From contig JBBQBG010000001.1 in the NCBI GenBank assembly GCA_038317285.1, forward strand, positions 1 to 55,945: a stretch of 55,945 bases of DNA. The letters run 5' to 3'. Position 1 is the first letter of the stretch. Every line of letters starts with the position of its first letter. The DNA is from Burkholderiales bacterium (lineage in GTDB: Bacteria > Pseudomonadota > Gammaproteobacteria > Burkholderiales > Burkholderiaceae_C). Made by a program: the position numbers and the translations under genes. The notes beneath the pieces are model-generated. The model searched no databases, was not told the DNA's origin, and saw only the letters and a program-made list of their open reading frames with translations. Shown here piece after piece: positions 6,664 through 22,491 of this stretch.

Positions 6664-7536
6664 ATGACCACTGCCATCCATATCCACGCTCTGAGCAAAA
6701 CCTTTCTGGGCGGCCGCAAGGCGTTAAAAGACATCCATTTGGACATCCAACCGGGCGAAATGGTGGCTTTGATTGGCGCGTCTGGCTCCGGCAAATCCAC
6801 CCTGTTGCGGCATATGGCTGGCCTCATGGCAGGCGACGCCAGTACCACTGGCTTGATCCAGATCCACGGAAAAATCGTCCAAGCCCAGGGCAAGATTGCA
6901 CGCGATATTCGCAAGACCCGCAGCGGCGTGGGCTTTGTGTTTCAGCAATTCAATCTGGTCGACCGCTTGCCAGTCATCGTGAACGTGTTAGCGGGTGCCT
7001 TGCACCGCATACCCCTGTGGCGCAGCCTGACGCGCTGGTTTAGCAGCGCCGAGGTGGCGCGCGGTATGGACGCCCTGCGCAGGGTGGGCATTGCCGAATG
7101 CAGCGCACAGCGCGCCTCCACACTATCGGGCGGTCAACAACAACGCGCGGCCATCGCAAGGGCCCTGGTGCAAGGCGCCAACGTGATATTGGCCGACGAG
7201 CCGATCGCATCGCTCGACCCCGAGTCGTCACGCAAGGTGATGGACATACTGTCCCGCGTCAACCAGGAAGACCGATGCACCGTCGTAGTGTCCCTGCACC
7301 AAGTGAACGTGGCCATGAAATACTGCCCACGCACCGTAGCACTGCACCAAGGTCGCGTGGTGTATGACGGCCCGTCGAACGCCTTGACCCCCGTATTACT
7401 GCGCGAACTATATGGTGCCGAGGCGGATGACATTTTGTCGTTGGGTGACCACATCACCAGCTTGCAAGACCACAAGCCCGGCGTTCCCCACCTCGTATGG
7501 CCTGTACCTGTAACGCCGCTAGCCGTTGCAGCCTGA
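6664..7536 (+). CDS. phnC: Phosphonate ABC transporter ATP-binding protein
   Basis: [42 protein letters not shown]; lies directly before phnD and phnE. Confidence 0.95.
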
Positions 7537-7599
7537 CATCTCGGCTCAATCGTATCTCTCTTAACCCACCAATCCCCTACCCTTTCCAAGGAAACCACC

Positions 7600-8568
7600 A
7601 TGCTAAAAAGTCTCGCATTCGGAGCCATTGCAGCCAGTCTGCTCGCCCTTAACCCCGTCAACGCCCAGGAGCTAAAGGAACTCAACTTCGGCATCATCTC
7701 CACCGAGTCCTCGCAAAACCTGAAGTCGGATTGGCAACCCATATTGGATGACATGGCCAAGAAGACCGGCATGAAGGTGAACGCCTTTTTTGCATCTGAC
7801 TACGCCGGCATCATCGAAGGCATGCGCTTCAACAAGGTCCATGTGGCATGGTTTGGCAACAAGTCAGCCATTGAAGCGGTGGACCGCGCCAACGGCGAAG
7901 TGTTTGCCCAGTATGTGAATTCCGACGGAACACAGGGCTACACATCCCACTTGATCGTGCACAAAGACAGCCCCATCAAGAGCGTGGAGGACATGATCAA
8001 GCAAGGCAAGAACCTGGCTTTTGGCAACGGTGACCCCAACTCGACATCCGGCTTTTTGGTGCCCAGCTACTACGTTTTCGCCCAGAACAAAGTTGACCCC
8101 AAAACACTGTTCAGGGTATCGCGCTCGGCCAACCATGAGACGAACGCCCTGGCCGTCGCGGCCAAGCAGGTAGATGTCGCCACCAACAATAGTGAGGTAT
8201 TGGAGAAGGTCAAAGAAAAGCAGCCCGAAAAATTCAACGACATCCGCATCATCTGGACTTCGCCCTTGATTCCATTGGACCCACTGGTCATGCGCAAAGA
8301 CCTGCCCGAAGCCACCAAGGCCAAAGTGCGTGACTTCTTCTATACCTACGGCAAGGGCGGCCAGCAGGAGAAAGACAACTTGTTCAAGCTGTCCAAACTG
8401 TCGGGCTTCAAGGCATCCACCAACAGCCAGCTCATCCCGATTCGCCAATTGGAACTGTTCAAAAACCGCAACAAGGCCGAGGCTGACGAGAACCTGGCCG
8501 TAGCCGAAAAGCAAGCCAAGTTGGCAGAGATCGACAAGCAACTGGCTGCATTGAGCACTGCCAAATAA
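7600..8568 (+). CDS. phnD: Phosphonate ABC transporter substrate-binding protein
   Basis: Signal peptide, [49 protein letters not shown]. Confidence 0.96.
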
Positions 8569-9386
8569 TGCAAGCCATGACACCGCAGGGCGCGGCGGTG
8601 CCGCTTTCGGCCGCACCCGCCACCAAGTTACCACGCACTTCACTACTGGGCTGGCTTAGCTGGGGGGTGTTGCTGGCCATGTTGGCAGGCTCCTGGAAAG
8701 GCGCCGACATGCGGCCTTTCGACCTGGTGCGCGACGCCGGCAACATGGCCACCTATGCGGCAGATTTTTTCCCGCCCAATTTCCATGACTGGCGCATGTA
8801 CCTGAGTGAAATGCTGGTCACGCTGGAAATTGCTTTGTGGGGAACTGCGCTGGCCGTGGTGTGTGCCGTGCCTTTGGGGTTACTGTCATCGGCCAACATC
8901 AGCCCGCCTTGGGTGCACCACCCGATCCGGCGACTGATGGATGCAGCCCGTGCCATCAACGAAATGGTGTTTGCGATGTTGTTCATCGTGGCCGTGGGGC
9001 TGGGGCCGTTTGCTGGTGTGTTGGCCTTGTTCGTGCACACCACGGGTGTGTTAGCCAAGCTTTTTTCAGAAGCTGTGGAGTCCATCGACACACAGCCCGT
9101 AGAAGGCATTCGGGCCACCGGGGCCAATGCGATGGAAGAGATTGTCTACGGCATCATTCCCCAGGTGTTGCCGTTGTGGATTTCCTATTCGCTGTACCGG
9201 TTTGAATCGAACGTGCGATCAGCCTCTGTGGTGGGTATGGTCGGTGCCGGGGGTATTGGCGTCATCTTGTGGGACATCATCCGCAGCTTTCAGTATGCCC
9301 AAACCTGCGCTGTGATGATCATCATTATTGTCACGGTATCGGGTATCGATCTGGTCTCGGCACGCATCCGCAAAGTGGTGACATAG
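8568..9386 (+). CDS. phnE: Phosphonate ABC transporter permease
   Basis: [53 protein letters not shown]. Confidence 0.96.
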
Positions 9387-11152: not shown

Positions 11153-12184
11153 TCAGGGCAAGGTATTGGCATAAAACCAATCGATCAATTCGCCGTTGCT
11201 GTGACCGTAGGCCTCGTTCCATAGCCAATAGTGTGGCGCGTTGGTAACCGCCGTGAAGCGACTGCTGCTTGGCCAGCCGGCTGCAATCAATCGGTCATAA
11301 GCAGCCCGGCCAAAGCTAAACGGCACTTGCGCATCTGCCGTGCCATGCATAAACCAAATCTGGCGCTTGGGGCTGGCCGCGCCGATGCTGAAATTGCTAC
11401 CCAGAGGGTCGTAGCCCGCGCTCACGGCATACGCAGCAAACGGACTGCTCCACTGGCCATTAAAAACGTTGGCGTTGTTACTGGCCATGGCCATTGCCAC
11501 TGTGAAGCCTGCACCACGCGAAAATCCGGCGGCGTAGATTTTGCGCTTGTCGATGTTGTAACTGGTCCCTATGTCTTGCACGATGCGCGTGATCAACTGC
11601 AAATCATTGCCAAAACTGTTGCTGCTGCCGTCAGCACCAGGCCAACCCTGCGTCGCTGATAGCAACCAAGCCGAAACGCCAGAGCTCCCTATATAAGCGT
11701 CCGCCGCAACGAGCACGTAGTTTTTCGCGTCAGCACTCTGTGTCAAGCCGATATTGGTGACAAAGTTGTCGCCACGGTCCCCCGCCCCATGCAAAGCTAT
11801 GACGAGGGGAACTGGTTCAGACGTGGCAGACGCCCGCGCGTTATTCGGCGCATAAACAAAATAACTGCGTTGCACACCGTTAACTGAAACTTGGGCTTGC
11901 CGCGGCCCGGCAGCACCACCGCTGCCTAGCGTGCCATGGCCTGGTGCGGGTGCTGGCGCTGGCGCTGGCGCTGGCGCTGGGGCTGGGGCCGGGGCAGGTG
12001 CTAGCGGCTCAATAGGCGGCATTGGTGTGAGTGCAGGAGGGAATGGTGTTGCCGCCGGAGTGGGAACGGAATTAGGAGCGGGGTTCGGTTGAGACACGGG
12101 CTCACTTCCTCCCCCGCCACACGCCACCAAGTTGGCCAAGATCAGGCAAGCCAACAAGGCTCGAAGCAGTGAAAAAGATGACAT
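11153..12184 (-). CDS. PHB depolymerase/LpqC-like esterase lipoprotein with Pro-Ala linker
   Basis: Lipobox LVAC-GGGG, (PA)n linker, PLVIALHGAG, GFSRG nucleophile, HGTAD, APH. Confidence 0.82.
   Translation of the reverse strand: MSSFSLLRALLACLILANLVACGGGGSEPVSQPNPAPNSVPTPAATPFPPALTPMPPIEPLAPAPAPAPAPAPAPAPAPAPGHGTLGSGGAAGPRQAQVSVNGVQRSYFVYAPNNARASATSEPVPLVIALHGAGDRGDNFVTNIGLTQSADAKNYVLVAADAYIGSSGVSAWLLSATQGWPGADGSSNSFGNDLQLITRIVQDIGTSYNIDKRKIYAAGFSRGAGFTVAMAMASNNANVFNGQWSSPFAAYAVSAGYDPLGSNFSIGAASPKRQIWFMHGTADAQVPFSFGRAAYDRLIAAGWPSSSRFTAVTNAPHYWLWNEAYGHSNGELIDWFYANTLP
11940..12003 (-). repeat. Hexamer tandem repeat encoding about 10 Pro-Ala units
   Basis: GCTGGC/GCTGGG/GCCGGG tandem run on the plus strand. 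Confidence 0.85.
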
Positions 12185-12625: not shown

Positions 12626-12643
12626 TGGCACACCGGGTTTCAT
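12626..12643 (-). pseudogene. intI: Vestigial 5' end of an integron integrase gene
   Basis: ATG AAA CCC GGT GTG CCA (MKPGVP), after which similarity is lost. Context GGTTTCATGG-N11-LexA box parallels intI1 (GGTTTTCATGG-N10-CTGT...ACAG). attC cassettes lie divergently downstream. Confidence 0.5.
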
Positions 12644-12656
12644 GGAAAATTTATAT

Positions 12657-12672
12657 CTTCATATTTATACAG
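12657..12672. promoter_or_regulatory. Degenerate LexA (SOS) box
   Basis: CTTCATATTTATACAG versus CTG-N10-CAG, one mismatch in the conserved triplets, 13 bp upstream of the putative intI start. Confidence 0.55.
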
Positions 12673-12727
12673 TGGTTGGGCCGCAAAGCCAACAGGCAAG
12701 CCGTTTCCGGCGTTTTCTCAAAAAGCT

Positions 12728-13483
12728 GGGCAATGGCGCAACTCCAAGACCGATTACCTCGTACCGGTCAAAGCCCTCAGTGCGCTGTTTCGCGGCAAAC
12801 TCCTGGCCCACCTCAGCCACGCCTTGACCCACCAACGGTTGAAGCTGCCGCCCCAGCACACCTTGCAGCACTGGCGCCAGTGCATCCGCCAGCAATATGC
12901 CAAGCACTGGAATGTTGAACTCAGCCAGTCTTACGCGCACGGGCGGGGTGTGGCCCTGTACTTGGCACGCTACGTCAAGGGCGGGCCACTGGGCCCTGAG
13001 CGAGCCCTGCACCTGAACGCACAGGGCGTACACTTTGATTACACCGATCACCGCGATGGCCAACACAAACACATGACTCTGCAAACCGATGCGTTTATCC
13101 GGCGTGTGCTTTGGCATGCGCCCGTACAGGGCCAGCATCTGGTGCGCCACTGTGGTTTGTACGCCAGCGCGGCAAAAGTGCTGCAGCACAAAGCCATGAC
13201 TGCGTTGCGACCCGCATCCATGCCCGTGGCGCAAGAGCCACTGGCCTGTCACGCGCCACCGCAGCAGCCCATCACGGCCCACTTGTGTCCGCGATGTACG
13301 CAAGCCCTGGTGCGCATCAGCAGTGTCTTGCCTGCGCACCGCTTTGGTGAAATTTCTATAGCGGAGCACAGTCAGACCCCTTCAGGCATTGGCCCAACGG
13401 GTCGACCTAGCGGACAAACGACGGCAAATGACAATGGCGTCCTTCGACGACGTTCTTTGCGCCGTTGTTCGCCGCTAATCTAA
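12728..13483 (+). pseudogene. IS91-family (HUH/Y2) transposase, 5'-truncated
   Basis: Continuous frame GQWRNSKTDYLVPVKALSALFRGKLL...YLARYVKGGP...FIRRVLWHAP...VRHCGLYA...CPRC. YxxxY motif retained; HUH motif and N-terminal Zn domain missing. Confidence 0.85.
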
Positions 13484-13492
13484 ACGTTCGAC
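13392..13492 (+). mobile_element. Integron attC site 1 (101 bp)
   Basis: R'' GCCCAAC, 5 nt, L'' GACCTAGC, imperfect stem (ggacaaacgacggcaaa / tttgcgccgttgttcgcc), L' GCTAATC, 5 nt, R' GTTCGAC. Confidence 0.8.
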
Positions 13493-13550
13493 TGCAATAG
13501 CATAGTGTTCTAGGCTTGCCGCCATGTAGTCCATGGGATACAATCGTGCT

Positions 13551-13838
13551 ATGCGTGTGCAAACGACCAAGGTCTATCTCGATTGGATTAATTCCCTGAA
13601 TGACCGAGCGGGTCGTGCACGAATTCAAGTTCGCGTCGATAGACTCGTTCACGGGAATCCGGGGCAGCATAGGGCTCTGACTGACGGTGTTTGCGAGTTG
13701 AAGATCGATTTCGGACCAGGATACCGGGTCTATTACACGGAGCGAGCTGGCGTTGTCTTTGTGCTGCTGGCTGGCGGTGACAAATCATCTCAGCAGAAAG
13801 ACATCAAGACTGCGATCTCGTTGGCAAAAGGACTCTAG
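13551..13838 (+). CDS. Type II TA RelE/ParE-superfamily toxin (addiction module killer, HigB-like)
   Basis: ARIQVRVDRL.GNPG...GVCELKIDFGPGYRVYY...LLAGGDKSSQQKDI. Confidence 0.92.
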   Translation: MRVQTTKVYLDWINSLNDRAGRARIQVRVDRLVHGNPGQHRALTDGVCELKIDFGPGYRVYYTERAGVVFVLLAGGDKSSQQKDIKTAISLAKGL

Positions 13839-13848
13839 GAGCATTTTT

Positions 13849-14178
13849 ATGACAAAAGCAATTTCTAAAGCAAGAGCGTCGACCACCAAAGTGACCAGCA
13901 CCGTTGCGTATGACGTATCTGAACAACTCAGAACGCCAGAGGAGATGGCTGCGTATCTGGACGCATGGCTGGAAGAGGCACCGGATGACGCAACCGGAAT
14001 TGCCCGTGCACTAGGGGACATCGCGCGTGCCAAGGGGATGACGCAAGTGGCGCGCGACGCCGGGCTGAGTCGGGAAAGTTTGTACAAAGCCTTGGGTGAA
14101 AATGGAAATCCAACTTTCGCAACGGTTTTAAAGGTGGCGAGGGCATTGGGCGTTAGGTTTCATGCGCAAGTTGCCTAA
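13849..14178 (+). CDS. Addiction module antidote protein (HigA-like HTH antitoxin)
   Basis: YDVSEQLRTPEEMAAYL...ALGDIARAKGMTQVARDAGLSRESLYKAL...GNPTFATVLKV; directly follows the toxin. Confidence 0.92.
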   Translation: MTKAISKARASTTKVTSTVAYDVSEQLRTPEEMAAYLDAWLEEAPDDATGIARALGDIARAKGMTQVARDAGLSRESLYKALGENGNPTFATVLKVARALGVRFHAQVA

Positions 14179-14184
14179 ATTGCT

Positions 14185-14241
14185 TTCGGACAGGTCATTC
14201 CACACTGACGCCTGCGGCGCTGGTGAATTTCGACGTTCAAC
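14185..14241 (+). mobile_element. Integron attC site 2 (57 bp, R'' degenerate)
   Basis: R'' TTCGGAC (expected GTCGAAC), L'' ATTCCAC pairing with L' GTGAAT with an extra C, central CGCC-TGC-GGCG hairpin, R' GTTCAAC. Starts 6 nt after the antitoxin stop. Confidence 0.68.
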
Positions 14242-14430: not shown

Positions 14431-14486
14431 TACTTCAAAAATGATAGCTGCTTACGCAATACCGACGAGGGCTAGGGCCGGATTTT
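14431..14486 (+). repeat. Dispersed ~55-bp REP-like repeat, copy 1
   Basis: ...GATAGCTGCTTACGCAATACCGACGAGGGCTAGGGCCGGATTTT; shares the TAGC...GC...CGAGGGCT core with the other copies. Confidence 0.75.
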
Positions 14487-14524
14487 ATGTATACCGCACT
14501 CCGCAGCCGCTGATATAAAGCCCA

Positions 14525-15070
14525 TCAGGGTGTCGACAACGCTTGCAGGTAATGCACCAATTTTTGCCCCGCCTGCTCCACGCTGTGCTCGTTGACGATG
14601 GTGCAGTCAGTGTGCAGTTGAGAAAACTGGGTATTGCGGGCCATGCGATCTGCAACTGCGTGGGGGGCGTCACGGCCGCGCTGTTGCAACCGTTGCGCCA
14701 GTACTTGTGCATCGGCAACGATTTGCACCACTCGTACGTCGGGTCTGCCGGCCAGCGCATTGGCATGCTCCCGCGAGCCATTGACCACAACTACACCACC
14801 GCCTTGCACGGTCTTTGCATAGTGCACTGCAATGCCATAGGCAAACCCGTGCGCGTGCCACTCCCATGCCAACCCACTCGCTTCGCGCAGTTGCGCAAAC
14901 TGCCCGGGGGTAACTGCGTCGTGGTCGGAGCCTGCATGGGGCTCGCGGGTCACCATGCGCCTTGCAAAGCCAATGCCGGCACTACCCCCCAGACGCTCGG
15001 CCGCCCAGTGCATCACGCTGTCCTTGCCCGCGCCCGATGCGCCGCACACAAACACCCACACGCCGCTCAT
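14525..15070 (-). CDS. phnN: Ribose 1,5-bisphosphate phosphokinase
   Basis: CGASGAGKDS, WHAHGFAYGI, VVNGSR, RLQQRGRD; located in the phn cluster. Confidence 0.9.
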   Translation of the reverse strand: MSGVWVFVCGASGAGKDSVMHWAAERLGGSAGIGFARRMVTREPHAGSDHDAVTPGQFAQLREASGLAWEWHAHGFAYGIAVHYAKTVQGGGVVVVNGSREHANALAGRPDVRVVQIVADAQVLAQRLQQRGRDAPHAVADRMARNTQFSQLHTDCTIVNEHSVEQAGQKLVHYLQALSTP

Positions 15071-15762
15071 GCGCCCAACTCCATGTCGGCCATTCGGGTG
15101 AAAGCATGCCCGTTGCCAGGCTCTACAAACAAGCACAAGCGATCCAAAACCAGGGGTTCTGTTGCATTGAGTTGCGCCACGCGGTCTTGCACGGCGTGCA
15201 CCACTGCCTCTGCATACGATGGGGTAACAGAGCCCGTCAACGAGAAGTGCAAGCGAAATCGCTCCATCACATACGGGTAGCCAAACTGATGCAACAACTC
15301 CAAGGCACGCGCATCAAGCTTTTCCGGCTGGCGTCGCGCCAGGTCCTCAGCACTCAACGGTCGGCGCAAATCGTCTAGGTCCGTGACGCAGCTTGCCGCC
15401 AGTTGGGCCAGCGCTTGCGGCACCTCACCTGGCACCAGCGCTACAAAGTTGCCCAGTACTGTGGGATGCAAATGCCCAAGATCCAAAGGCCGTAGTGTTT
15501 TGGCATGCGCCCGAAGGCGCCGTTGCAGCTCGGCCACGGTACAACCGGTGTGCAAGCCAAACGGCGCTTTGAGCGTAGCGTGAAAACCATAGCGGCGGGG
15601 CTCGGCCGTCATGGCGTGCAAAGCCTCGGACGAGATGTGGGGCAACTCCGGTTGCAGCAACGCACAGTCTCGGATTTCGTCCCGCCCCAGCCAATGCGCA
15701 CCAAACTGCCACCAGGCAGAGTGCGGTGGCGGTGCAAAGTACACCGCATGGCGCGCGGTCAT
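15067..15762 (-). CDS. DUF1045 phosphonate-metabolism protein (2H phosphoesterase-like)
   Basis: RHAVYFAP, PRRYGFHATLKAPF and GYPYVMERFRLHFSLT give two HxT/S motifs. Confidence 0.9.
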   Translation of the reverse strand: MTARHAVYFAPPPHSAWWQFGAHWLGRDEIRDCALLQPELPHISSEALHAMTAEPRRYGFHATLKAPFGLHTGCTVAELQRRLRAHAKTLRPLDLGHLHPTVLGNFVALVPGEVPQALAQLAASCVTDLDDLRRPLSAEDLARRQPEKLDARALELLHQFGYPYVMERFRLHFSLTGSVTPSYAEAVVHAVQDRVAQLNATEPLVLDRLCLFVEPGNGHAFTRMADMELGA

Positions 15763-16517
15763 GGCTCATCCCCTGCTGCAACCAAGAGTTGCACCCGATC
15801 ACCGGAGAAGACAACCTCACCATATTTGATGGGAGTGCCGTCCATGTCCACATCCAGGCTCTCCACGCACAGCACGGGCCGAGTACCCATTTGTTTGAGC
15901 AAGCGGGCCGTCTCGTCGCTGGGCATCTGCGTAGTGATGCGGCTTTGCGCACGCAAGTAGTCTTGCACGCCAAAATGCTTCAGGATATCCGTAGTGCGGT
16001 CGCCAGATGCCAACATTTCCAGCAGCCCGGCAAAGCGCTGGGCTGGGTAGTAGGCGGTGGCCAGGCCGATGGGCGCATCGTTGGCCTCGTCCAGGGTCTC
16101 CACCATCAGCACGGCATCCCCCTTGGCCAACCGCAGTTCCTTGGCAGCCCGGTCCGGGGCCGGCATTTGCCGCGCCGTCAGCAGTTGCTTGCTGGGCAAC
16201 AGACCTTGGCGCAACAGGTTCTCGCTAAAGCGGGTGCGCCGCGACAGGGCGTAGTCCATCAACTCGTGCTGGATGAACATGCCCCGCCCAGGTTCGATGC
16301 GCACCAGGCCATCGGTTTGCAAGGCAGCCAAAGCCTGGCGCATGGTATGGCGGTTGACCTGGAAGCGTGACGCCAGTTCCACCTCACCTGGCAGGCGGCC
16401 AGTCTCGGCGTAGATGCGGTTGCGGATTTCACCGCCCAAGGTGTCGGCAATCTGCTTCCACACCGATACGCCGCTGCGCCGCCCCGGCGCGCCGGTGTTG
16501 AGTTGTGCAAAGGGCAT
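15759..16517 (-). CDS. phnF: Phosphonate metabolism GntR/UTRA regulator
   Basis: RLPGEVELASRFQVNRHTMRQAL, RTRFSENL, UTRA domain. Confidence 0.93.
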   Translation of the reverse strand: MPFAQLNTGAPGRRSGVSVWKQIADTLGGEIRNRIYAETGRLPGEVELASRFQVNRHTMRQALAALQTDGLVRIEPGRGMFIQHELMDYALSRRTRFSENLLRQGLLPSKQLLTARQMPAPDRAAKELRLAKGDAVLMVETLDEANDAPIGLATAYYPAQRFAGLLEMLASGDRTTDILKHFGVQDYLRAQSRITTQMPSDETARLLKQMGTRPVLCVESLDVDMDGTPIKYGEVVFSGDRVQLLVAAGDEP

Positions 16518-16565
16518 GCAAGTCTCCTGATGTGGGGAAAGTCGTCGAATGTAGAGATGGATTTA

Positions 16566-16579
16566 GACATCTAGATGAC
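16566..16579. promoter_or_regulatory. Candidate PhnF operator palindrome
   Basis: GACATCTAGATGAC with perfect core CATCTAGATG, between divergent phnF and phnG. Confidence 0.6.
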
Positions 16580-16617
16580 AAAGCCTGAAATCCGCCGACT
16601 TTTTTTCTCACACGGGG

Positions 16618-16635
16618 TTGTCATAAATCGTACAT
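16618..16635 (+). promoter_or_regulatory. Pho box upstream of phnG
   Basis: TTGTCAT-AAAT-CGTACAT. Confidence 0.7.
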
Positions 16636-16658
16636 GTTGGCGCGGTGAACTCGTCTCC

Positions 16659-17123
16659 ATGACAACAAACACACATTCTCCTGCGCACCTGGCGCGCCCT
16701 GCGTGGCTGGCGGTGCTGGCACGCGCCAGCCTGGCCCAACTTGAGGCCCAACTGCCGAGCCTGGCAGCGCTACCCACCGTGACGCGGGTGCGCCCTGCCG
16801 AGGTCGGTATGGTGATGCTGCGCGGGCGCGTCGGCGGCACGGGTGATGCGTTCAACCTGGGCGAAGCCAGCGTCGTGCGCTGCGCCGTTCGCTTGGGCGA
16901 CGGGCCCTTGGGCGTGTCCTACGCGCTGGGCCGCGACAAGCGCCGCGCAGAGGCCGCTGCGCTGTGCGACGCCCTACTGCAAGACGCACACCACCACGAC
17001 CAATTGCAACAGTGTTTGGTAGTGCCATTGGCCCAGGGACAAGCGCAAGCAAAGGCGCAAAGGCACAACGCGGTGGCCCAATCCAAGGTCGAGTTCTTTA
17101 CCTTGGTACGGGGTGAAGCATGA
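16659..17123 (+). CDS. phnG: C-P lyase subunit PhnG
   Basis: RPAEVGMVMLRGRVGGTGDAFNLGEASV, SKVEFFTLVRGE. Confidence 0.95.
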   Translation: MTTNTHSPAHLARPAWLAVLARASLAQLEAQLPSLAALPTVTRVRPAEVGMVMLRGRVGGTGDAFNLGEASVVRCAVRLGDGPLGVSYALGRDKRRAEAAALCDALLQDAHHHDQLQQCLVVPLAQGQAQAKAQRHNAVAQSKVEFFTLVRGEA

Positions 17124-17746
17124 GCAGCGGCCCATCCACCAACGCCCTGGCCGCCGGTCTGCAGGATGCCGTGCACGAATCGCAGCAAGCCTTTCGCCAA
17201 GTGCTCGACGCGCTGGCCCGCCCTGGCCAAACCCGCCACATTGGCGCTGCGCTGCCCGGTGTAGCCCTGGGCGGTGCGATGGCGCGTCTGCTGTTGAGCC
17301 TGACCGACGACGAAACGCCCGTGCACTGGCAGCCGACAAGTCAAGGCACTAGTCACGACAGCGCGCTGCACAGCTGGCTGCAATTCCACACCGGTGCGCG
17401 TGCGATGGGGCAAGCCGACGCGGCCAGCTTTGCGGTGGTTACGGAGCCTTCGCAAGCCCCGCCACTGGTTGACTATGCGCAGGGCTCAGCAGCATCGCCC
17501 GAATTCTCTTGCACGCTGCTGATGGAGCTGCCCAGCTTGAATGGTGGCACCGCCTTGGAATGGCACGGCCCGGGCATCCAACACACACAGGTCGTCGGTC
17601 TTGAAGGTCTGCCCGAGGGCTTTTGGCAGCAGTGGCAGGCCAATCACGCCGCGTTCCCGCAAGGTGTGGACATCATCTTTACCTGCGGCGAATACGCGCT
17701 GGGCCTGCCCCGCACAACCCGCGTGCGCCGTTTGGAGGGCATTTGA
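17120..17746 (+). CDS. phnH: C-P lyase subunit PhnH
   Basis: SQQAFRQVLDALARPG, FHTGA, GPGI, FPQGVD, GLPRTT. Confidence 0.95.
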   Translation: MSSGPSTNALAAGLQDAVHESQQAFRQVLDALARPGQTRHIGAALPGVALGGAMARLLLSLTDDETPVHWQPTSQGTSHDSALHSWLQFHTGARAMGQADAASFAVVTEPSQAPPLVDYAQGSAASPEFSCTLLMELPSLNGGTALEWHGPGIQHTQVVGLEGLPEGFWQQWQANHAAFPQGVDIIFTCGEYALGLPRTTRVRRLEGI

Positions 17747-17747
17747 T

Positions 17748-18878
17748 ATGTATGTTGCAGTAAAAGGTGGTGCAGCGGCGATTGAAAGCTCTTGGCGCCT
17801 GTTAGACGCCCAGCGGCGGGGCGACAAGGGGATTGCAGAACTCTCCGTTGCGCAGATCCAATCGCAGCTGACACTGGCAGTGGACCGTGTCATGGTCGAA
17901 GGCTCGCTGTACGACCCCGAGTTGGCGGCCCTGGCCATCAAGCAGGCCAGCGGAGATTTGATCGAAGCCATTTTCTTGTTGCGGGCCTATCGCACCACCT
18001 TGCCGAGGCTGGGCTACGCGGAGCCGCTGGACACCGCGAAGATCGCTTTGTCGCGCCGGGTCTCGGCCACGTTCAAAGAAGTGCCAGGCGGTCAGCTGCT
18101 GGGTCCCACCTACGACTACACCCAGCGCCTGTTGGATTTTGCTTTGCTGGCCGAGGGTGCCGACCCTGAGGCCCAAGCAGCCGATGCGGCCCTATTGCCC
18201 GCACCCGAGGCCACCCACCACGTTGCGCCCCCCACCACCGTGCCGCGCATCAACGACTTGCTGGCACGCGAGGGCCTGCTGGAAACGCCACAACCGCAGG
18301 ACAAGGCTGCAACCGGTGATCTAACCCGCGAGCCACTGATGTTCCCAGCCGACCGCGCCGTGCGCCTGCAAGCCCTCGCGCGTGCGGACGAGGGGTGGCT
18401 GCTGGGTATGGGCTACTCCAGCCAGCGTGGCTACGCCAACGCGCACCCATTCGCAGGGGAAATTCGTCGCGGCCTGGTGCAGGTGGAAATGCAGGCCGAT
18501 GAGCTGGGTTTTGCGGTTGACATCGGCGACATTGAAATCACTGAGTGTCAGATGGTCAACCAGTTCAGTGGCAGCCGCGACATTCCACCGCAGTTCACGC
18601 AGGGTTACGGCCTGGCCTTTGGCGGTGCCGAGCGCAAGGCGATGGCCATGGCGCTGGTCGACCGCACCCTCAGAGCCGACGAATTGGGCGAGGCCCGCGT
18701 GGCGCCCGCGCAGGACGAAGAGTTTGTGCTCTCGCATGCCGACAACGTGGAGGCTTCGGGCTTTGTGCAGCACTTGAAGTTGCCGCATTACGTGGATTTT
18801 CAGGCCGAGCTGGAACTGGTGCGCAAGCTGCGCGCCAGCCATGCAGTCGCCACTATCGCCACCCAGGAAGCAGCATGA
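17748..18878 (+). CDS. phnI: C-P lyase subunit PhnI
   Basis: MYVAVKGG, LLRAYRTTLPR, GFVQHLKLPHYVDFQAEL. Confidence 0.97.
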   Translation: MYVAVKGGAAAIESSWRLLDAQRRGDKGIAELSVAQIQSQLTLAVDRVMVEGSLYDPELAALAIKQASGDLIEAIFLLRAYRTTLPRLGYAEPLDTAKIALSRRVSATFKEVPGGQLLGPTYDYTQRLLDFALLAEGADPEAQAADAALLPAPEATHHVAPPTTVPRINDLLAREGLLETPQPQDKAATGDLTREPLMFPADRAVRLQALARADEGWLLGMGYSSQRGYANAHPFAGEIRRGLVQVEMQADELGFAVDIGDIEITECQMVNQFSGSRDIPPQFTQGYGLAFGGAERKAMAMALVDRTLRADELGEARVAPAQDEEFVLSHADNVEASGFVQHLKLPHYVDFQAELELVRKLRASHAVATIATQEAA

Positions 18879-19783
18879 CCGACACCCACTACAACTTCGC
18901 ATTTTTAGACGAACGCACCAAAAAACGCATCCGCCGTGCGCTGCTCAAAGCCGTGGCCGTGCCGGGTTACCAGGTGCCTTTTGGCTCCCGCGAAATGCCC
19001 TTTGCCTATGGCTGGGGCACGGGTGGCGTGCAGGTGACCGCCAGCGTGATCGGTTTGACCGATGTGCTCAAGGTCATAGACCAGGGCGCGGACGATACGA
19101 CCAATGCGGTCAACATCCGTCGCTTCTTCTCCCGCACCACCGGTGTCGCCACGACTGAGAAAACACGCGAGGCCACATTGATCCAGACCCGCCACCGGAT
19201 CCCCGAGACGCCGCTGACCGAACAGCATATTCTGGTCTACCAAGTGCCCATGCCTGAGCCGCTGTACCGGCTGGAACCCAGCCGGCGGGAGGCTATCAAG
19301 ATGCACACCTTGCAGGAGTACGGCCTGATGCATGTGCGCTTGTACGAAGACATAGCGCAACTGGGCGCCGTCGCTCGGGCCTACGACTACCCGGTGATGG
19401 TGAATGAGCGCTATCTGATGTCGCCCTCGCCCATCCCGAAATTCGACAACCCCAAGATGCACATGAACCCCGCCCTGCAGCTCTTTGGCGCGGGCCGCGA
19501 AAAGCGCCTGTATGCCATCCCGCCGTACACGACGGTGCGCAGCCTGGACTTTGAGGACCACCCGTTTGAAGTGCAGCGTTGGGACCACAGCTGTGCACTG
19601 TGCGGCGCGAGTGAAAGTTATCTTGACGAGATGATTGTGGATGACCAGGGCAGCCGACTGTTTGTATGCTCTGACAGCGACTACTGCGAGGAACGTCGCA
19701 CCGCAGGCCACGTGGGTGGCCAACAGGCCGTGACCCTGCACGACGCATTGGACTCGGCCGAACCAGCGCAGGAGGCCGCATGA
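18875..19783 (+). CDS. phnJ: Alpha-D-ribose 1-methylphosphonate 5-phosphate C-P lyase (radical SAM)
   Basis: YNFAFLDE, YGWGTGG, DQGADDTTNAV, CALC...VCSDSDYC Fe-S cysteines. Confidence 0.97.
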   Translation: MTDTHYNFAFLDERTKKRIRRALLKAVAVPGYQVPFGSREMPFAYGWGTGGVQVTASVIGLTDVLKVIDQGADDTTNAVNIRRFFSRTTGVATTEKTREATLIQTRHRIPETPLTEQHILVYQVPMPEPLYRLEPSRREAIKMHTLQEYGLMHVRLYEDIAQLGAVARAYDYPVMVNERYLMSPSPIPKFDNPKMHMNPALQLFGAGREKRLYAIPPYTTVRSLDFEDHPFEVQRWDHSCALCGASESYLDEMIVDDQGSRLFVCSDSDYCEERRTAGHVGGQQAVTLHDALDSAEPAQEAA

Positions 19784-20586
19784 AGGCCCCGGTCTTGCTG
19801 TCGGTCCGCGGCGCTGGCAAAGCCTTTGTGCACCAGGGCCAACCCCGTTGGGCTTGTCGTGGTGTGAACTTTGATTTGTACCCCGGCGAGGTCCTGGCCG
19901 TGGTGGGCGAGTCTGGCTCCGGCAAGAGCACCTTGCTGCGCCTGCTGGCCGCACGTCTGGAATGTGACGAGGGCTCTGTGCACTATGACGTGCGCACTGA
20001 ATCTGCCGAGCAGGCCTCAACATTGATGGACTTGGCCACCCTCTCAGAGGCGCGCTTGCGCTGGCTGGCCCGCACCGATTGGGGCTTTGTAGAGCAACAC
20101 GCCCGCGACGGCTTGCGCATGAACGTATCGGGTGGTGCCAATGTGGGGGAGCGCCTGATGGCCCTTGGGTCTCGCCACTACGGCCAGTTGCGCAACGAGG
20201 CCACCGCCTGGATGCAACGGGTGGAGCTGGACACCCGCCGCGTAGACGACTTGCCCGCCACGTACTCGGGCGGCATGCAGCAGCGCCTGCAAATTGCCCG
20301 CAACCTGGTGACACACCCGCGCTTGGTCTTCATGGACGAGCCGACGACCGGCCTGGATGTGTCGGTGCAGGCCAAGTTGTTGGATCTGCTGCGCGAGCTG
20401 GTGGATGAATTGCAGCTTGCCGCCGTGGTCGTGACCCACGATCTGGCCGTGGCCCGACTGTTGGCCCAACGCATGCTGGTCATGAAAGATGGTGTGGTGG
20501 TGGAGCAGGGCTTGACCGACCGCGTGCTGGACGACCCGCAGCACCCCTACACACAACTGTTGGTGTCTTCTGTATTGACGCCCTAG
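19780..20586 (+). CDS. phnK: C-P lyase system ABC-ATPase PhnK
   Basis: GESGSGKST, RTDWGFV, SGGMQQRLQIARNL, GLTDRVLDDPQHPYTQLLVSS. Confidence 0.96.
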   Translation: MKAPVLLSVRGAGKAFVHQGQPRWACRGVNFDLYPGEVLAVVGESGSGKSTLLRLLAARLECDEGSVHYDVRTESAEQASTLMDLATLSEARLRWLARTDWGFVEQHARDGLRMNVSGGANVGERLMALGSRHYGQLRNEATAWMQRVELDTRRVDDLPATYSGGMQQRLQIARNLVTHPRLVFMDEPTTGLDVSVQAKLLDLLRELVDELQLAAVVVTHDLAVARLLAQRMLVMKDGVVVEQGLTDRVLDDPQHPYTQLLVSSVLTP

Positions 20587-20630
20587 CACGCCATGCAAGA
20601 GCACAGACCCACACATTTCAAAACCCGTTC

Positions 20631-21329
20631 ATGACCGCAATACTAGAAACCCACGCGCTGTCCAAGACCTTCACCCTGCATGGACGCGGTGGCATGCAAT
20701 TGCCGGTGTTTGCCGGCATCAACCTGCAAGTCCAGCCCGGCGAGTGTTTGGCACTAACAGGGCATTCGGGCAGTGGCAAGAGTTCGCTGCTGCGCTGCCT
20801 GTATGGCAACTACGGTGCCAGCAGCGGGGAAGTGCGCATTCGCCACCAGGGCGAGTGGCTCAGTTTGACCAACGCCTTGCCCCGCGATGTGTATGAGGTC
20901 CGCCGCCGCACCATGGGTTATGTCTCGCAGTTCTTGCGTGTCATACCGCGCGTTTCCACACTGGACATTGTGGCCGATCCCTTGCGCCGAAAGGGCGTCA
21001 GCGCAGAGGCGGCACGCACCCAGGCCGCGCACTGGTTGCAACGCCTGAACTTACACGAGCATCTGTGGCATCTGCCCCCTGCCACCTTCTCGGGTGGCGA
21101 GCAACAAAGGGTCAACATTGCGCACGGAATGATCAGCCAGTCGCCCCTTCTGTTACTGGATGAGCCCACGGCCTCACTCGATGCGGACAACCGCCGGGTC
21201 GTGGTCGATCTCATACACGCCGCTCGTGCACAAGGCAGTGCGATCGTCGGCATCTTTCACGACGACGAGGTCCGCGAGGCCGTGGCCACGCGCAGCTTCG
21301 ACGTCGAGCAGCACCGCAACCCTAACTGA
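20631..21329 (+). CDS. phnL: C-P lyase system protein PhnL
   Basis: KTFTLH, GYVSQFLRVIPRV, PATFSGGEQQRVNIA, GIFHD. Confidence 0.96.
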   Translation: MTAILETHALSKTFTLHGRGGMQLPVFAGINLQVQPGECLALTGHSGSGKSSLLRCLYGNYGASSGEVRIRHQGEWLSLTNALPRDVYEVRRRTMGYVSQFLRVIPRVSTLDIVADPLRRKGVSAEAARTQAAHWLQRLNLHEHLWHLPPATFSGGEQQRVNIAHGMISQSPLLLLDEPTASLDADNRRVVVDLIHAARAQGSAIVGIFHDDEVREAVATRSFDVEQHRNPN

Positions 21330-21348
21330 TATGCAAAGAGACTCTGCT

Positions 21349-22491
21349 ATGGACACCTACACCATCCGCAACGCCCGCGTTGTAACCGCTGACGAAGAAT
21401 TTACCGGCTGCGTCCATATTGCCGACGGCTGCATACGCGCCGTCGACCGGGGCGACACCTCGGTACCCGGTGCCCAAGATTGGGAAGGAGACTGGTTGAT
21501 GCCCGGCTTGGTGGAACTGCACACCGACAATCTGGAAAAGCACCTGTCACCACGACCCGGCGTACTGTGGAACGCCCATTCGGCCATGACCGTGCACGAC
21601 GCCCAATGTGCGGCAGCCGGTATCACCACGGTATTGGACTCCGTGGTGATTGGTGACCTTGACGAAGGTGGCCCCCGCACCCAAACCCAGCACACATCCA
21701 TAGCCGCATTGCACCAATGCCGCGACGAGGGCCTGATGCGCGTGGACCACTGGTTACACCTGCGCTGCGAAGTCTCAGCACCCGACATTTTGGAATCATT
21801 CAACCAGTATATTGACGACCCGTTGCTGCGCTTGGTCAGCGTCATGGACCATACGCCGGGCCAGCGCCAGTGGCGCGATCTCAAAAGCTACCGCCGCTAC
21901 ACCGAGCGCAACGGCCGCTACAGCGAGGCCGAGTTTGATGCCATGATCGCGCAGCGCAAGGTCGACCAACAGGCCTTCGCCCTGCCTCACCGGCAATTGA
22001 TCGTCAAGGCTAGTCAACAGCGCGCGGTGCCTCTGGCCAGCCACGATGACACCCTGCTGGGTGATGTGGAATTGGCGGTGACCGAGGGTGTTGGCATGTC
22101 CGAATTTCCCACCACCGTTGCGGCTGCGCAGGCCGCGCGCAAAGCGGGCATGGCCATCATCATGGGCGGCCCCAACATGGTCAAGGGCGGATCGCACTCG
22201 GGCAATGTGTCGGCGGCGGAACTGGCACAGCTGGATTTGCTGGACATTTTTTCTTCAGACTACGTCCCCAGCAGCCTGCTGATGGCGACTTTTATGTTGG
22301 GCCAGCTGGAAAATTGGTCATTACCCAAGGCGGTTCGCACCGTCACGCGCAATGCCGCCCACGCCATTGGCATGCAGGATCGCGGCGAGTTGGCGGTTGG
22401 CCTGCGTGCCGACCTGTTGCGTGTGCGCATGAACCGCGCGGGTATGCCCACGGTGCTAGAGACTTGGCTGGCCGGCAAGCGTGCGTATTAG
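21349..22491 (+). CDS. phnM: Alpha-D-ribose 1-methylphosphonate 5-triphosphate diphosphatase
   Basis: PGLVELHTDNLE, HLRCE, MDHTPGQRQ, ASHDD, GGSHSGNV, SSDYVP. Alternative start at 21331. Confidence 0.96.
   Translation: MDTYTIRNARVVTADEEFTGCVHIADGCIRAVDRGDTSVPGAQDWEGDWLMPGLVELHTDNLEKHLSPRPGVLWNAHSAMTVHDAQCAAAGITTVLDSVVIGDLDEGGPRTQTQHTSIAALHQCRDEGLMRVDHWLHLRCEVSAPDILESFNQYIDDPLLRLVSVMDHTPGQRQWRDLKSYRRYTERNGRYSEAEFDAMIAQRKVDQQAFALPHRQLIVKASQQRAVPLASHDDTLLGDVELAVTEGVGMSEFPTTVAAAQAARKAGMAIIMGGPNMVKGGSHSGNVSAAELAQLDLLDIFSSDYVPSSLLMATFMLGQLENWSLPKAVRTVTRNAAHAIGMQDRGELAVGLRADLLRVRMNRAGMPTVLETWLAGKRAY

What the first reader, a model, noticed from the sequence alone, without database searches (positions are those of the whole stretch)
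12626..14241. Decayed integron whose first cassette is an IS91-like HUH/Y2 transposase, followed by a TA cassette
Seen in sequence: two attC-shaped sites (13392-13492 and 14185-14241), each closing a gene unit. The Y2 transposase ORF reads through attC1 and stops (TAA 13481-83) in its L'-R' spacer. R' of attC1 (G/TTCGAC) is not complementary to its own R'' (GCCCAAC) but matches R'' of attC2 (TTCGGAC versus expected GTCGAAC), which is the signature of an integrase-inserted TA cassette. Upstream and divergent are MKPGVP plus a LexA box in the same arrangement as the intI1 promoter. Established knowledge: attC recombination uses folded single-stranded DNA, and IS91/ISCR enzymes generate ssDNA by rolling-circle transposition. 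Inference: a rolling-circle transposase packaged as a cassette could have supplied ssDNA substrate or mobilised cassettes, coupling two ssDNA mobility systems. This copy looks dead, since intI, attI and the HUH half are missing.
Basis: partly seen in the sequence, partly recalled or inferred. Interest (0 to 1): 0.8.

Follow-up and report, generated by a model that had tools for sequence, protein, structure and literature searches.

The report
Dead IS91 transposase cassette in integron
This is the wreck of an integron (a gene-capture platform) holding the back half of a rolling-circle jumping-gene enzyme, whose intact relatives in many bacteria are packaged exactly like integron gene cassettes and likely use the host's integron recombinase to move while their own enzyme may copy them.

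Summary
attC1 (13392-13492) scores 42.6 bits (E 3e-7) with a model built from 30 unrelated attC sites; attC2 is decayed (18.1 bits). MKPG and its upstream box are the 5' end of the genus's intI; a deletion at 12724/5 removed attI and the front 40% of the transposase. Contigs from three studies span this junction. The toxin-antitoxin unit is a true cassette in relatives. Intact homologs (about 420 aa, Zn + HUH + Y2, dN/dS 0.15-0.3) form a recombinase-less IS91 clade across several phyla. They begin at G|TT, end in their own attC, show covarying R'/R'' boxes (72 of 80 positions), and sit at attI or behind other attC sites, sometimes in several or tandem copies. They also carry terIS-like and, more weakly, oriIS-like motifs. 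Best reading: a selfish cassette moved by IntI and likely amplified by its own enzyme; no activity was tested. 'First cassette' cannot be proven because attI is deleted. In print I found only a one-line Shewanella remark and a differently arranged ISCR28 case. This scan reported the same theme before on other DNA (43 notes). This copy is dead.

The parts
12626..12643 (-). 5' stub of intI (MKPGVP; homology to IntI ends after about 5 codons; frame closes after 15 aa)
   Evidence: genus IntI proteins start MKPG(A/T/V/I)P
12644..12724 (-). intI promoter and intI-attI intergenic region, orthologous to that of genus integrons
   Evidence: 72-80% identity over about 100 bp
12657..12672 (-). degenerate LexA-type box (one half-site changed), 13 nt upstream of the intI ATG
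   Evidence: alignment
12724..12725 (.). deletion junction (2-nt AG microhomology) joining the intI intergenic region to the middle of the transposase gene; attI and the cassette's 5' part (at least about 670 bp) are lost
   Evidence: contigs of three studies span it, and one short contig continues here into attI-type sequence instead
12725..13483 (+). 3' 60% of an IS91-family transposase gene: Y2 motif YLARY (12959-12973) kept, Zn-binding and HUH parts missing, no start; stop inside attC1
   Evidence: 84% identical to P0003 aa 170-421
13351..13360 (+). oriIS-like motif (IS1294 right-end core with one base missing), 31 nt upstream of R''
13392..13492 (+). attC1: R'', L'', L' of the transposase cassette; crossover G|TT at 13486/7; R' tail from the TA cassette
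13487..14235 (+). toxin-antitoxin gene cassette
13533..13838 (+). RelE/ParE-family type II toxin (TIGR02683)
13849..14178 (+). HTH addiction-module antidote (TIGR02684, PF21716)
14185..14241 (+). attC2, decayed (R'' TTCGGAC instead of GTCGAAC, invariant AAC lost), likely no longer recombinable

Best explanation
The locus is a decayed chromosomal integron (intI stub, attI deleted) that holds the 3' part of an IS91-family transposase cassette and a TA cassette; intact relatives are recombinase-less IS91 elements with cassette ends, which are likely excised and inserted by the host's IntI and likely copied by their own HUH-Y2 enzyme. SHOWN: the anatomy G|TTRRRY, short palindrome, tnp (Zn, HUH, Y2), oriIS-like motif, own attC; a clade separate from the recombinase-paired IS91 elements; copies whose flanks change exactly at G|TT; location at attI or behind attC; purifying selection on the enzyme. 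INFERRED (about 0.75): movement is IntI recombination at G|TT. INFERRED (about 0.4): on the excised circle the enzyme would nick at the oriIS-like motif and roll towards the gene's 5' end, across the rejoined attC, giving unit-length bottom-strand circles, which is the strand IntI uses; the cassette would thus amplify its own integration substrate. In this genome the element is dead, and the TA pair probably explains why the remnant persists (inference from established knowledge of TA cassettes).
For: Closest intact relative L091/L092 (84% aa) reads attC-G|TTGAGC-palindrome-tnp-GCCCAAC...G|TT. A model hit overlaps or follows the stop within about 400 nt in 24 of 44 recombinase-less loci (L006-L049; two hits weak) and 6 of 6 metagenome loci, against 0 of 33 loci labelled recombinase-paired and 0 of 3 IS1294-type records. 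The recombinase-less rows form one 38-row branch with 100% SH-aLRT (quick tree, midpoint root). 5' heptamer versus R'': 72 of 80 variable positions complementary in 20 lineages, shuffled mean 45, maximum 66 in 100,000. Left flank of 33 elements: 9 attC by rule or model (+1 by eye), 6 attI with divergent intI 254-716 bp away, 4 more with nearly the same site sequence, 13 unclassified. After the right-hand GTT the next bases vary freely, the reverse of canonical IS91, whose target tetranucleotide is at the oriIS side (PMC13181058 passages). Four copies in each of three genomes (some truncated) and head-to-tail copies in L038/L169 and L017/L170. dN/dS 0.15-0.32 over the Y2 part and 0.09-0.34 over the Zn/HUH part; HxH and YLARY kept in all 6 relatives aligned. 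IS1294 begins GAAC + palindrome and ends AATTTCCTATACGT; the cassettes begin GTT-GAAC/GAGC/GCAC/GTAC/AAAT + palindrome (7 of 9 with independently fixed 5' ends fold at <= -3.5 kcal/mol, against 8 of 109 ordinary cassettes) and carry an ori-like match upstream of R'' in 7 of 20, against 6 of 104. LexA-type boxes lie in the leader of 7 of 33, against 1 of 109. IS91 inserts its bottom-strand circle (PMC13181058 passages).
Against: No recombination, nicking or circle was observed. IntI co-occurrence is not discriminating: over the cut-off in 21 of 32 genomes with the solo element against 13 of 27 with paired elements; many genomes are incomplete. 13 of 33 left flanks could not be assigned to attI or attC. 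The ori-like motif is poor in 13 of 20 lineages and is not followed by a conserved target tetranucleotide at the IS1294 nick position. A working terIS at the 5' end would stop rolling before attC and yield attC-less copies, which I did not see, so read-through must be assumed. The extrahelical C is at the usual L'' position in only 11 of 19 sites. 5' ends were picked partly by hairpin energy (27) or by eye (6), so the 16-of-20 hairpin figure is inflated; lineages are related, so the permutation test overstates.
Confidence: 0.55

Rival explanations
1. Autonomous IS91 element that mimics a cassette: its own Y2 enzyme cuts 5' of the GTT of attI/attC sites and inserts the element there; the attC-like hairpin is its oriIS end and IntI is not needed.
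For: IS91-family enzymes insert next to GTTC/CTTG-type tetranucleotides without target duplication (PMC13181058 passages); a cut before G and a crossover after G give the same sequence. The 5' end resembles terIS. 11 of 32 genomes show no full IntI. 13 of 33 left flanks are unclassified. Recombinase-paired relatives end in a similar hairpin followed by TAAAC.
Against: 20 of 33 left flanks are integron sites, far more than a bare GTT target would give; R'/R'' covariation and attC spacing fit selection on a folded attC in the circle; the oriIS-side tetranucleotide is not constrained beyond GTT.
Confidence: 0.2
2. Passive cargo: an IS91 gene was once captured into a cassette and is shuffled by IntI; the enzyme does nothing for the cassette's spread.
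For: All junctions are explained by IntI alone; many copies are broken (window, L009, L011, L018, L093). Markkanen et al. offer this reading for ISCR28 (PMC12772301 passages).
Against: Purifying selection and intact HUH and Y2 motifs across a clade spanning 33-85% identity; conserved non-coding ter- and ori-like motifs; LexA-type boxes; multiple and tandem copies.
Confidence: 0.15
3. Non-autonomous partner: the element borrows the tyrosine recombinase of recombinase-paired IS91 elements, not IntI.
For: The sister group carries an IntI-related recombinase and a similar terminal hairpin; the own genome has a broken element of that type on C265.
Against: Paired elements' ends score below the attC model (0 of 33) and most are not followed by GTT, whereas solo elements sit at attI or attC.
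Confidence: 0.07
4. Chance hairpins or an assembly chimera.
For: Fragmented assembly (399 contigs); folding energies not significant and attC2 weak.
Against: Model hit E about 3e-7; homologous cassettes elsewhere; single contigs from three studies span the 12724/5 junction and attC1.
Confidence: 0.02

Closest known systems
Integron gene cassettes with attC; chromosomal integrons of Betaproteobacteria
   Same: G|TT boundaries, R''-L''-L'-R' site at the gene's 3' end, complementary R boxes, location at attI or in arrays, divergent intI with a LexA box, TA cassette.
   Different: The cargo is a replication-type HUH enzyme with ter- and ori-like motifs; in the betaproteobacterial subclade the reading frame runs through the whole attC.
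Canonical IS91 family (IS91, IS801, IS1294)
   Same: Zn + HUH + Y2 transposase (NF033538; about 30% identity to IS1294 TnpA); left end tetranucleotide + palindrome; similar motif near the right end.
   Different: The element extends 130-170 nt beyond the ori-like motif to an attC and G|TT; the constrained flank is on the ter side; IS1294 records have no attC.
Recombinase-paired IS91 elements (e.g. ISMno24; ISAzo26 and ISShvi3 placed in this group from recall only)
   Same: [quoted passage not shown]
   Different: They encode their own tyrosine recombinase, lie on a separate branch and their ends are not picked up by the attC model (0 of 33).
ISCR28 (ISCR family)
   Same: IS91-like element reported with attC sites at or after the gene in sul4 modules (PMC12772301 passages); terIS begins GAAC + palindrome.
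   Different: Only 23% identical to P0003; in NZ_KY883660 the attC overlaps the terIS end on the opposite strand, and none follows the gene. The sul4 copies were not examined.
IS1111-attC elements and group IIC-attC introns (named in the PMC9229058 passage)
   Same: Mobile elements specialised on integron sites.
   Different: They interrupt an existing attC; this element brings its own attC and leaves neighbours intact.

Membership tests
Integron (complete) | intI gene | tested here: not met
   Only a 5-codon stub; no TIGR02249 match over the cut-off in the 83%-complete genome
Integron (complete) | attI site | tested here: not met
   Deleted at 12724/5; relatives have it about 60 bp further on
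Integron remnant / CALIN | two or more co-oriented attC sites, each closing a gene unit, without intI | tested here: met
   (attC2 decayed); own model, not IntegronFinder's
Integron gene cassette (transposase unit, judged on intact relatives) | starts at G|TTRRRY and ends in own attC | tested here: met
Integron gene cassette (transposase unit) | R' at the 5' end complementary to own R'' | tested here: met
   72 of 80 positions
Integron gene cassette (transposase unit) | extrahelical bases of attC | tested here: inconclusive
   C at L'' position 4 in the window and 11 of 19 relatives
Integron gene cassette (transposase unit) | excised and integrated by IntI | not testable with these tools
   needs a recombination assay; co-occurrence inconclusive
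IS91 family | Y2 transposase domain with two tyrosines | tested here: met
   PF04986, NF033538, YLARY
IS91 family | HUH motif and Zn-binding domain | tested here: not met
   Absent from this copy; present in intact relatives
IS91 family | terIS: tetranucleotide plus subterminal palindrome upstream of tnp | tested here: inconclusive
   Deleted here; look-alike in relatives; function untested
IS91 family | oriIS at the right end directly followed by the target tetranucleotide | tested here: not met
   Motif is internal, and the unit ends at the attC G|TT
IS91 family | rolling-circle transposition | not testable with these tools
   no assay
Recombinase-paired IS91 subgroup | co-oriented tyrosine recombinase gene directly upstream | tested here: not met
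   none in L006-L049 or L091-L096
Type II TA, HI1419/HI1420 type | RelE/ParE toxin followed by HTH antidote | tested here: met
   both over curated cut-offs; toxicity not tested

The most novel reading that the evidence does not exclude
A widespread class of selfish integron cassettes: recombinase-less IS91 elements that have outsourced excision and insertion to IntI and use their HUH-Y2 enzyme as a rolling-circle replicase on the excised circle, mass-producing bottom-strand circles with a folded attC under SOS control, and possibly exposing neighbouring attC sites as well.
Probability: 0.33. Interest if true: 0.85.

Novelty: new variant of a known kind. Interest (0 to 1): 0.58.

Why it matters
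Cassettes are regarded as passive, non-replicating cargo. A cassette that encodes a conserved rolling-circle enzyme and keeps ori- and ter-like motifs would be a self-amplifying parasite of integrons and would link the two ssDNA mobility systems directly. It would give a simple test of how cassette circles can be multiplied, and a clue to how attC sites relate to IS91 ends. The intact relatives L091/L092 and the Thiolapillus plasmid copy (L164) make this testable. The window's own copy adds little beyond a clear record of decay.

Tried and rejected
Rfam: no hit in the window. Folding energy does not separate either attC from shuffles. No promoter excess over shuffles; one 9-of-12 site before the toxin. 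No solved structure matches P0003 by sequence; no fold was run. IntI co-occurrence was inconclusive. ISCR28 as a member of this clade: rejected for the NZ_KY883660 copy. A conserved nick tetranucleotide right after the ori-like motif: not found. Protein-level constraint on the attC-encoded tail: not supported; dN/dS ranges 0.13-1.5 on 19-31 codons, and in many relatives the stop lies 170-220 nt before attC. No solo-clade transposase in 158 other genomes of the genus at E <= 1e-62 (two 35%-identity hits), and 2 of 400 in the family. The upstream esterase gene (11153-12184, minus strand) has no attC and is not part of the array. Tree labels were set by list: L076 was labelled recombinase-paired though no recombinase hit was found, and L058 solo though it falls among paired elements; the careful tree did not finish. 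A motif search of the papers returned only unrelated hits. Yuan et al. 2024 (ISCR28) and Loot et al. 2024 (attG sites) were seen only as cited in PMC12772301.

Full report
1. Observation. The sequence shows both sites at the stated coordinates. A rule-based scan found attC1 (13392-13492) as the only site scoring 15 or more in the window on either strand; its score of 17.5 was not reached in 20 shuffled windows. I built a covariance model from 30 attC sites taken from arrays beside intI genes of relatives, none linked to a transposase. It gives attC1 42.6 bits (E about 3e-7) and attC2 18.1 bits (E about 0.07), the two best of 4 hits. Folding energy alone is not significant for either site. The frame 12665-13480 matches Y2_Tnp (E 1e-37) and stops at TAA 13481-83 in the L'-R' spacer. 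The two genes after it are a RelE/ParE toxin and its antidote.

2. The integron remnant. The region 12627-12728 matched 29 of 158 other genomes of the genus. In these, ATG-MKPG opens IntI proteins of 331-341 aa or further stubs, followed upstream by a LexA-type box and, about 140 bp from the ATG, attI. In the window the box has lost one half-site. Homology to these regions ends at 12724 and homology to the transposase starts there, with AG shared. The deletion therefore removed attI, the cassette leader and about 169 codons including the Zn and HUH motifs; it may have removed more cassettes. Single contigs from three studies span the junction and attC1 with few differences, and one short contig continues at 12725 into attI-type sequence, so this is not an assembly error. 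No full intI was found in the genome (83% complete).

3. The TA cassette. Ten genomes of the genus match it. In L152, L153, L155 and L157 it starts at G|TTCGAC behind four different attC sites, and R'' is GTCGAAC in L152-L157. The window's R'' TTCGGAC is a decayed form, so the cassette is probably locked in place (inference).

4. The transposase family. 261 proteins matched; the best 120 were listed. Full-length ones are about 420 aa with Zn-binding and Y2 domains, and many of the first 60 end in the same attC-encoded tail. Of 88 loci examined, those with a co-oriented tyrosine recombinase upstream and those without fall on two sides of a well-supported branch (38 solo rows, 100% SH-aLRT; quick tree, midpoint root, two label caveats). 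The solo clade spans Beta-, Gamma- and Alphaproteobacteria, Acidobacteriota, Bacteroidota and Planctomycetota. The attC model hits at the 3' end of 24 of 44 solo loci and 6 of 6 metagenome loci (not all independent), and 0 of 33 paired loci; several misses are contig ends or gammaproteobacterial sites visible by eye. The closest intact relative, L091/L092, lies between two attC sites and starts G|TTGAGC 100 bp before its start codon. A plasmid of the isolate Thiolapillus brandeum has the same structure in a small array. Copies within one genome share the element and differ exactly at G|TT on both sides; two loci have head-to-tail copies. The 5' heptamer and R'' covary (GTTAAAT/ATTTAAC, GTTGTAC/GTACAAC, GTTGCAC/GTGCAAC, GTTGAAC/GTTCAAC): 72 of 80 positions against a shuffled mean of 45. 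Left flanks of 33 elements: 10 attC (one by eye), 10 attI-type (6 with divergent intI, 4 by near-identity of the site), 13 unclassified.

5. Is the enzyme alive in the clade? dN/dS is 0.15-0.32 in the Y2 part and 0.09-0.34 in the Zn/HUH part over six pairs. IS1294 records start with GAAC plus a palindrome and end in AATTTCCTATACGT before the target. Solo elements have a palindrome just after the heptamer (7 of 9 with independently fixed ends, against 8 of 109 ordinary cassettes) and an ori-like match before R'' (window 10 of 10 with one base missing; 7 of 20 lineages against 6 of 104 controls), also where this stretch is non-coding. Seven of 33 have a LexA-type box in the leader, six of them in one gammaproteobacterial branch, against 1 of 109; LexA control of ISCR transposases is published (PMC13393415, abstract).

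6. Mechanism. Sequence alone cannot tell an IntI crossover after G from an HUH cut before G. The pattern favours IntI: the left flank is an integron site, the right flank is free after GTT, and the R boxes covary as expected if the excised circle must fold a full attC. Canonical IS91 shows the opposite constraint (PMC13181058, passages). That paper also shows that the bottom strand is the inserted one; that attC recombination uses the bottom strand is established knowledge (recalled). Rolling from the ori-like motif around the excised circle would therefore yield IntI's substrate. This last step is inference, needs read-through at the ter-like end, and echoes a reading I saw in an earlier scan note. 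IntI co-occurrence did not discriminate (21 of 32 against 13 of 27).

7. What is known. Nine literature searches found no description of this clade; most subscription papers are not held. Seen: PMC9229058 (one passage: ISShvi3 next to an attC forming a cassette-like structure); PMC12772301 (passages and supplement passages: attC at or after ISCR28, read as passive shuffling, data not shown); PMC13181058, PMC6218425, PMC7923331, PMC8876359 (passages); PMC5620268 (passages, section 8); PMC13393415 (abstract). ISCR28 in NZ_KY883660 is 23% identical and has its attC at the opposite end and strand. Supplementary figures of the Shewanella and sul4 papers were not seen and may show more. This scan holds 43 notes with the same key words in at least 32 genomes; they are not independent evidence.

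8. Verdict. Real feature, dead copy, member of a barely described recombinase-less IS91 cassette clade: a new variant of known kinds. Anatomy about 0.9; full mechanism about 0.55; self-amplifying replicon about 0.33. Interest 0.58.

Noticed in passing
own genome C143:8400-9260 (minus strand): A second integron remnant: MKPGMP stub, promoter region, attI-like site, one cassette and an attC-like site.
   Followed up: partly
own genome C265:300-1910 (L001): A 3' remnant of intI fused back-to-back, at the shared HxFATHLL motif, to a broken recombinase-paired IS91 element that ends in an ori-like motif, an attC-like hairpin and G|TT, followed by a cassette-like gene.
   Followed up: partly
L093/L095 around 2150-2350: An independent decay of the same kind: an intI 3' fragment abuts a truncated copy of this transposase that also has an internal stop.
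   Followed up: no
L006:5729 and L130 attI: The same IS110-like element sits exactly before the GTT of the transposase attC in one genome and of attI in another.
   Followed up: no
window 14432-14490: A dispersed REP-like repeat with more than 20 copies in the genome closes the remnant on the right.
   Followed up: no
L022, L023, L025, L027, L039, L045 leaders: Consensus LexA boxes just before the transposase start in one gammaproteobacterial branch.
   Followed up: partly
window 11153-12184 (minus strand): A proline-rich lipoprotein-like PHB-depolymerase-family esterase gene upstream of the remnant; rare in the genus (2 of 158 genomes match parts of its sequence beyond the repeat).
   Followed up: partly
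window 6664-9386 and 14525-22491: The remnant and neighbours interrupt a phosphonate gene cluster (transporter genes on the left, C-P lyase genes on the right; names from recall of the translations).
   Followed up: no
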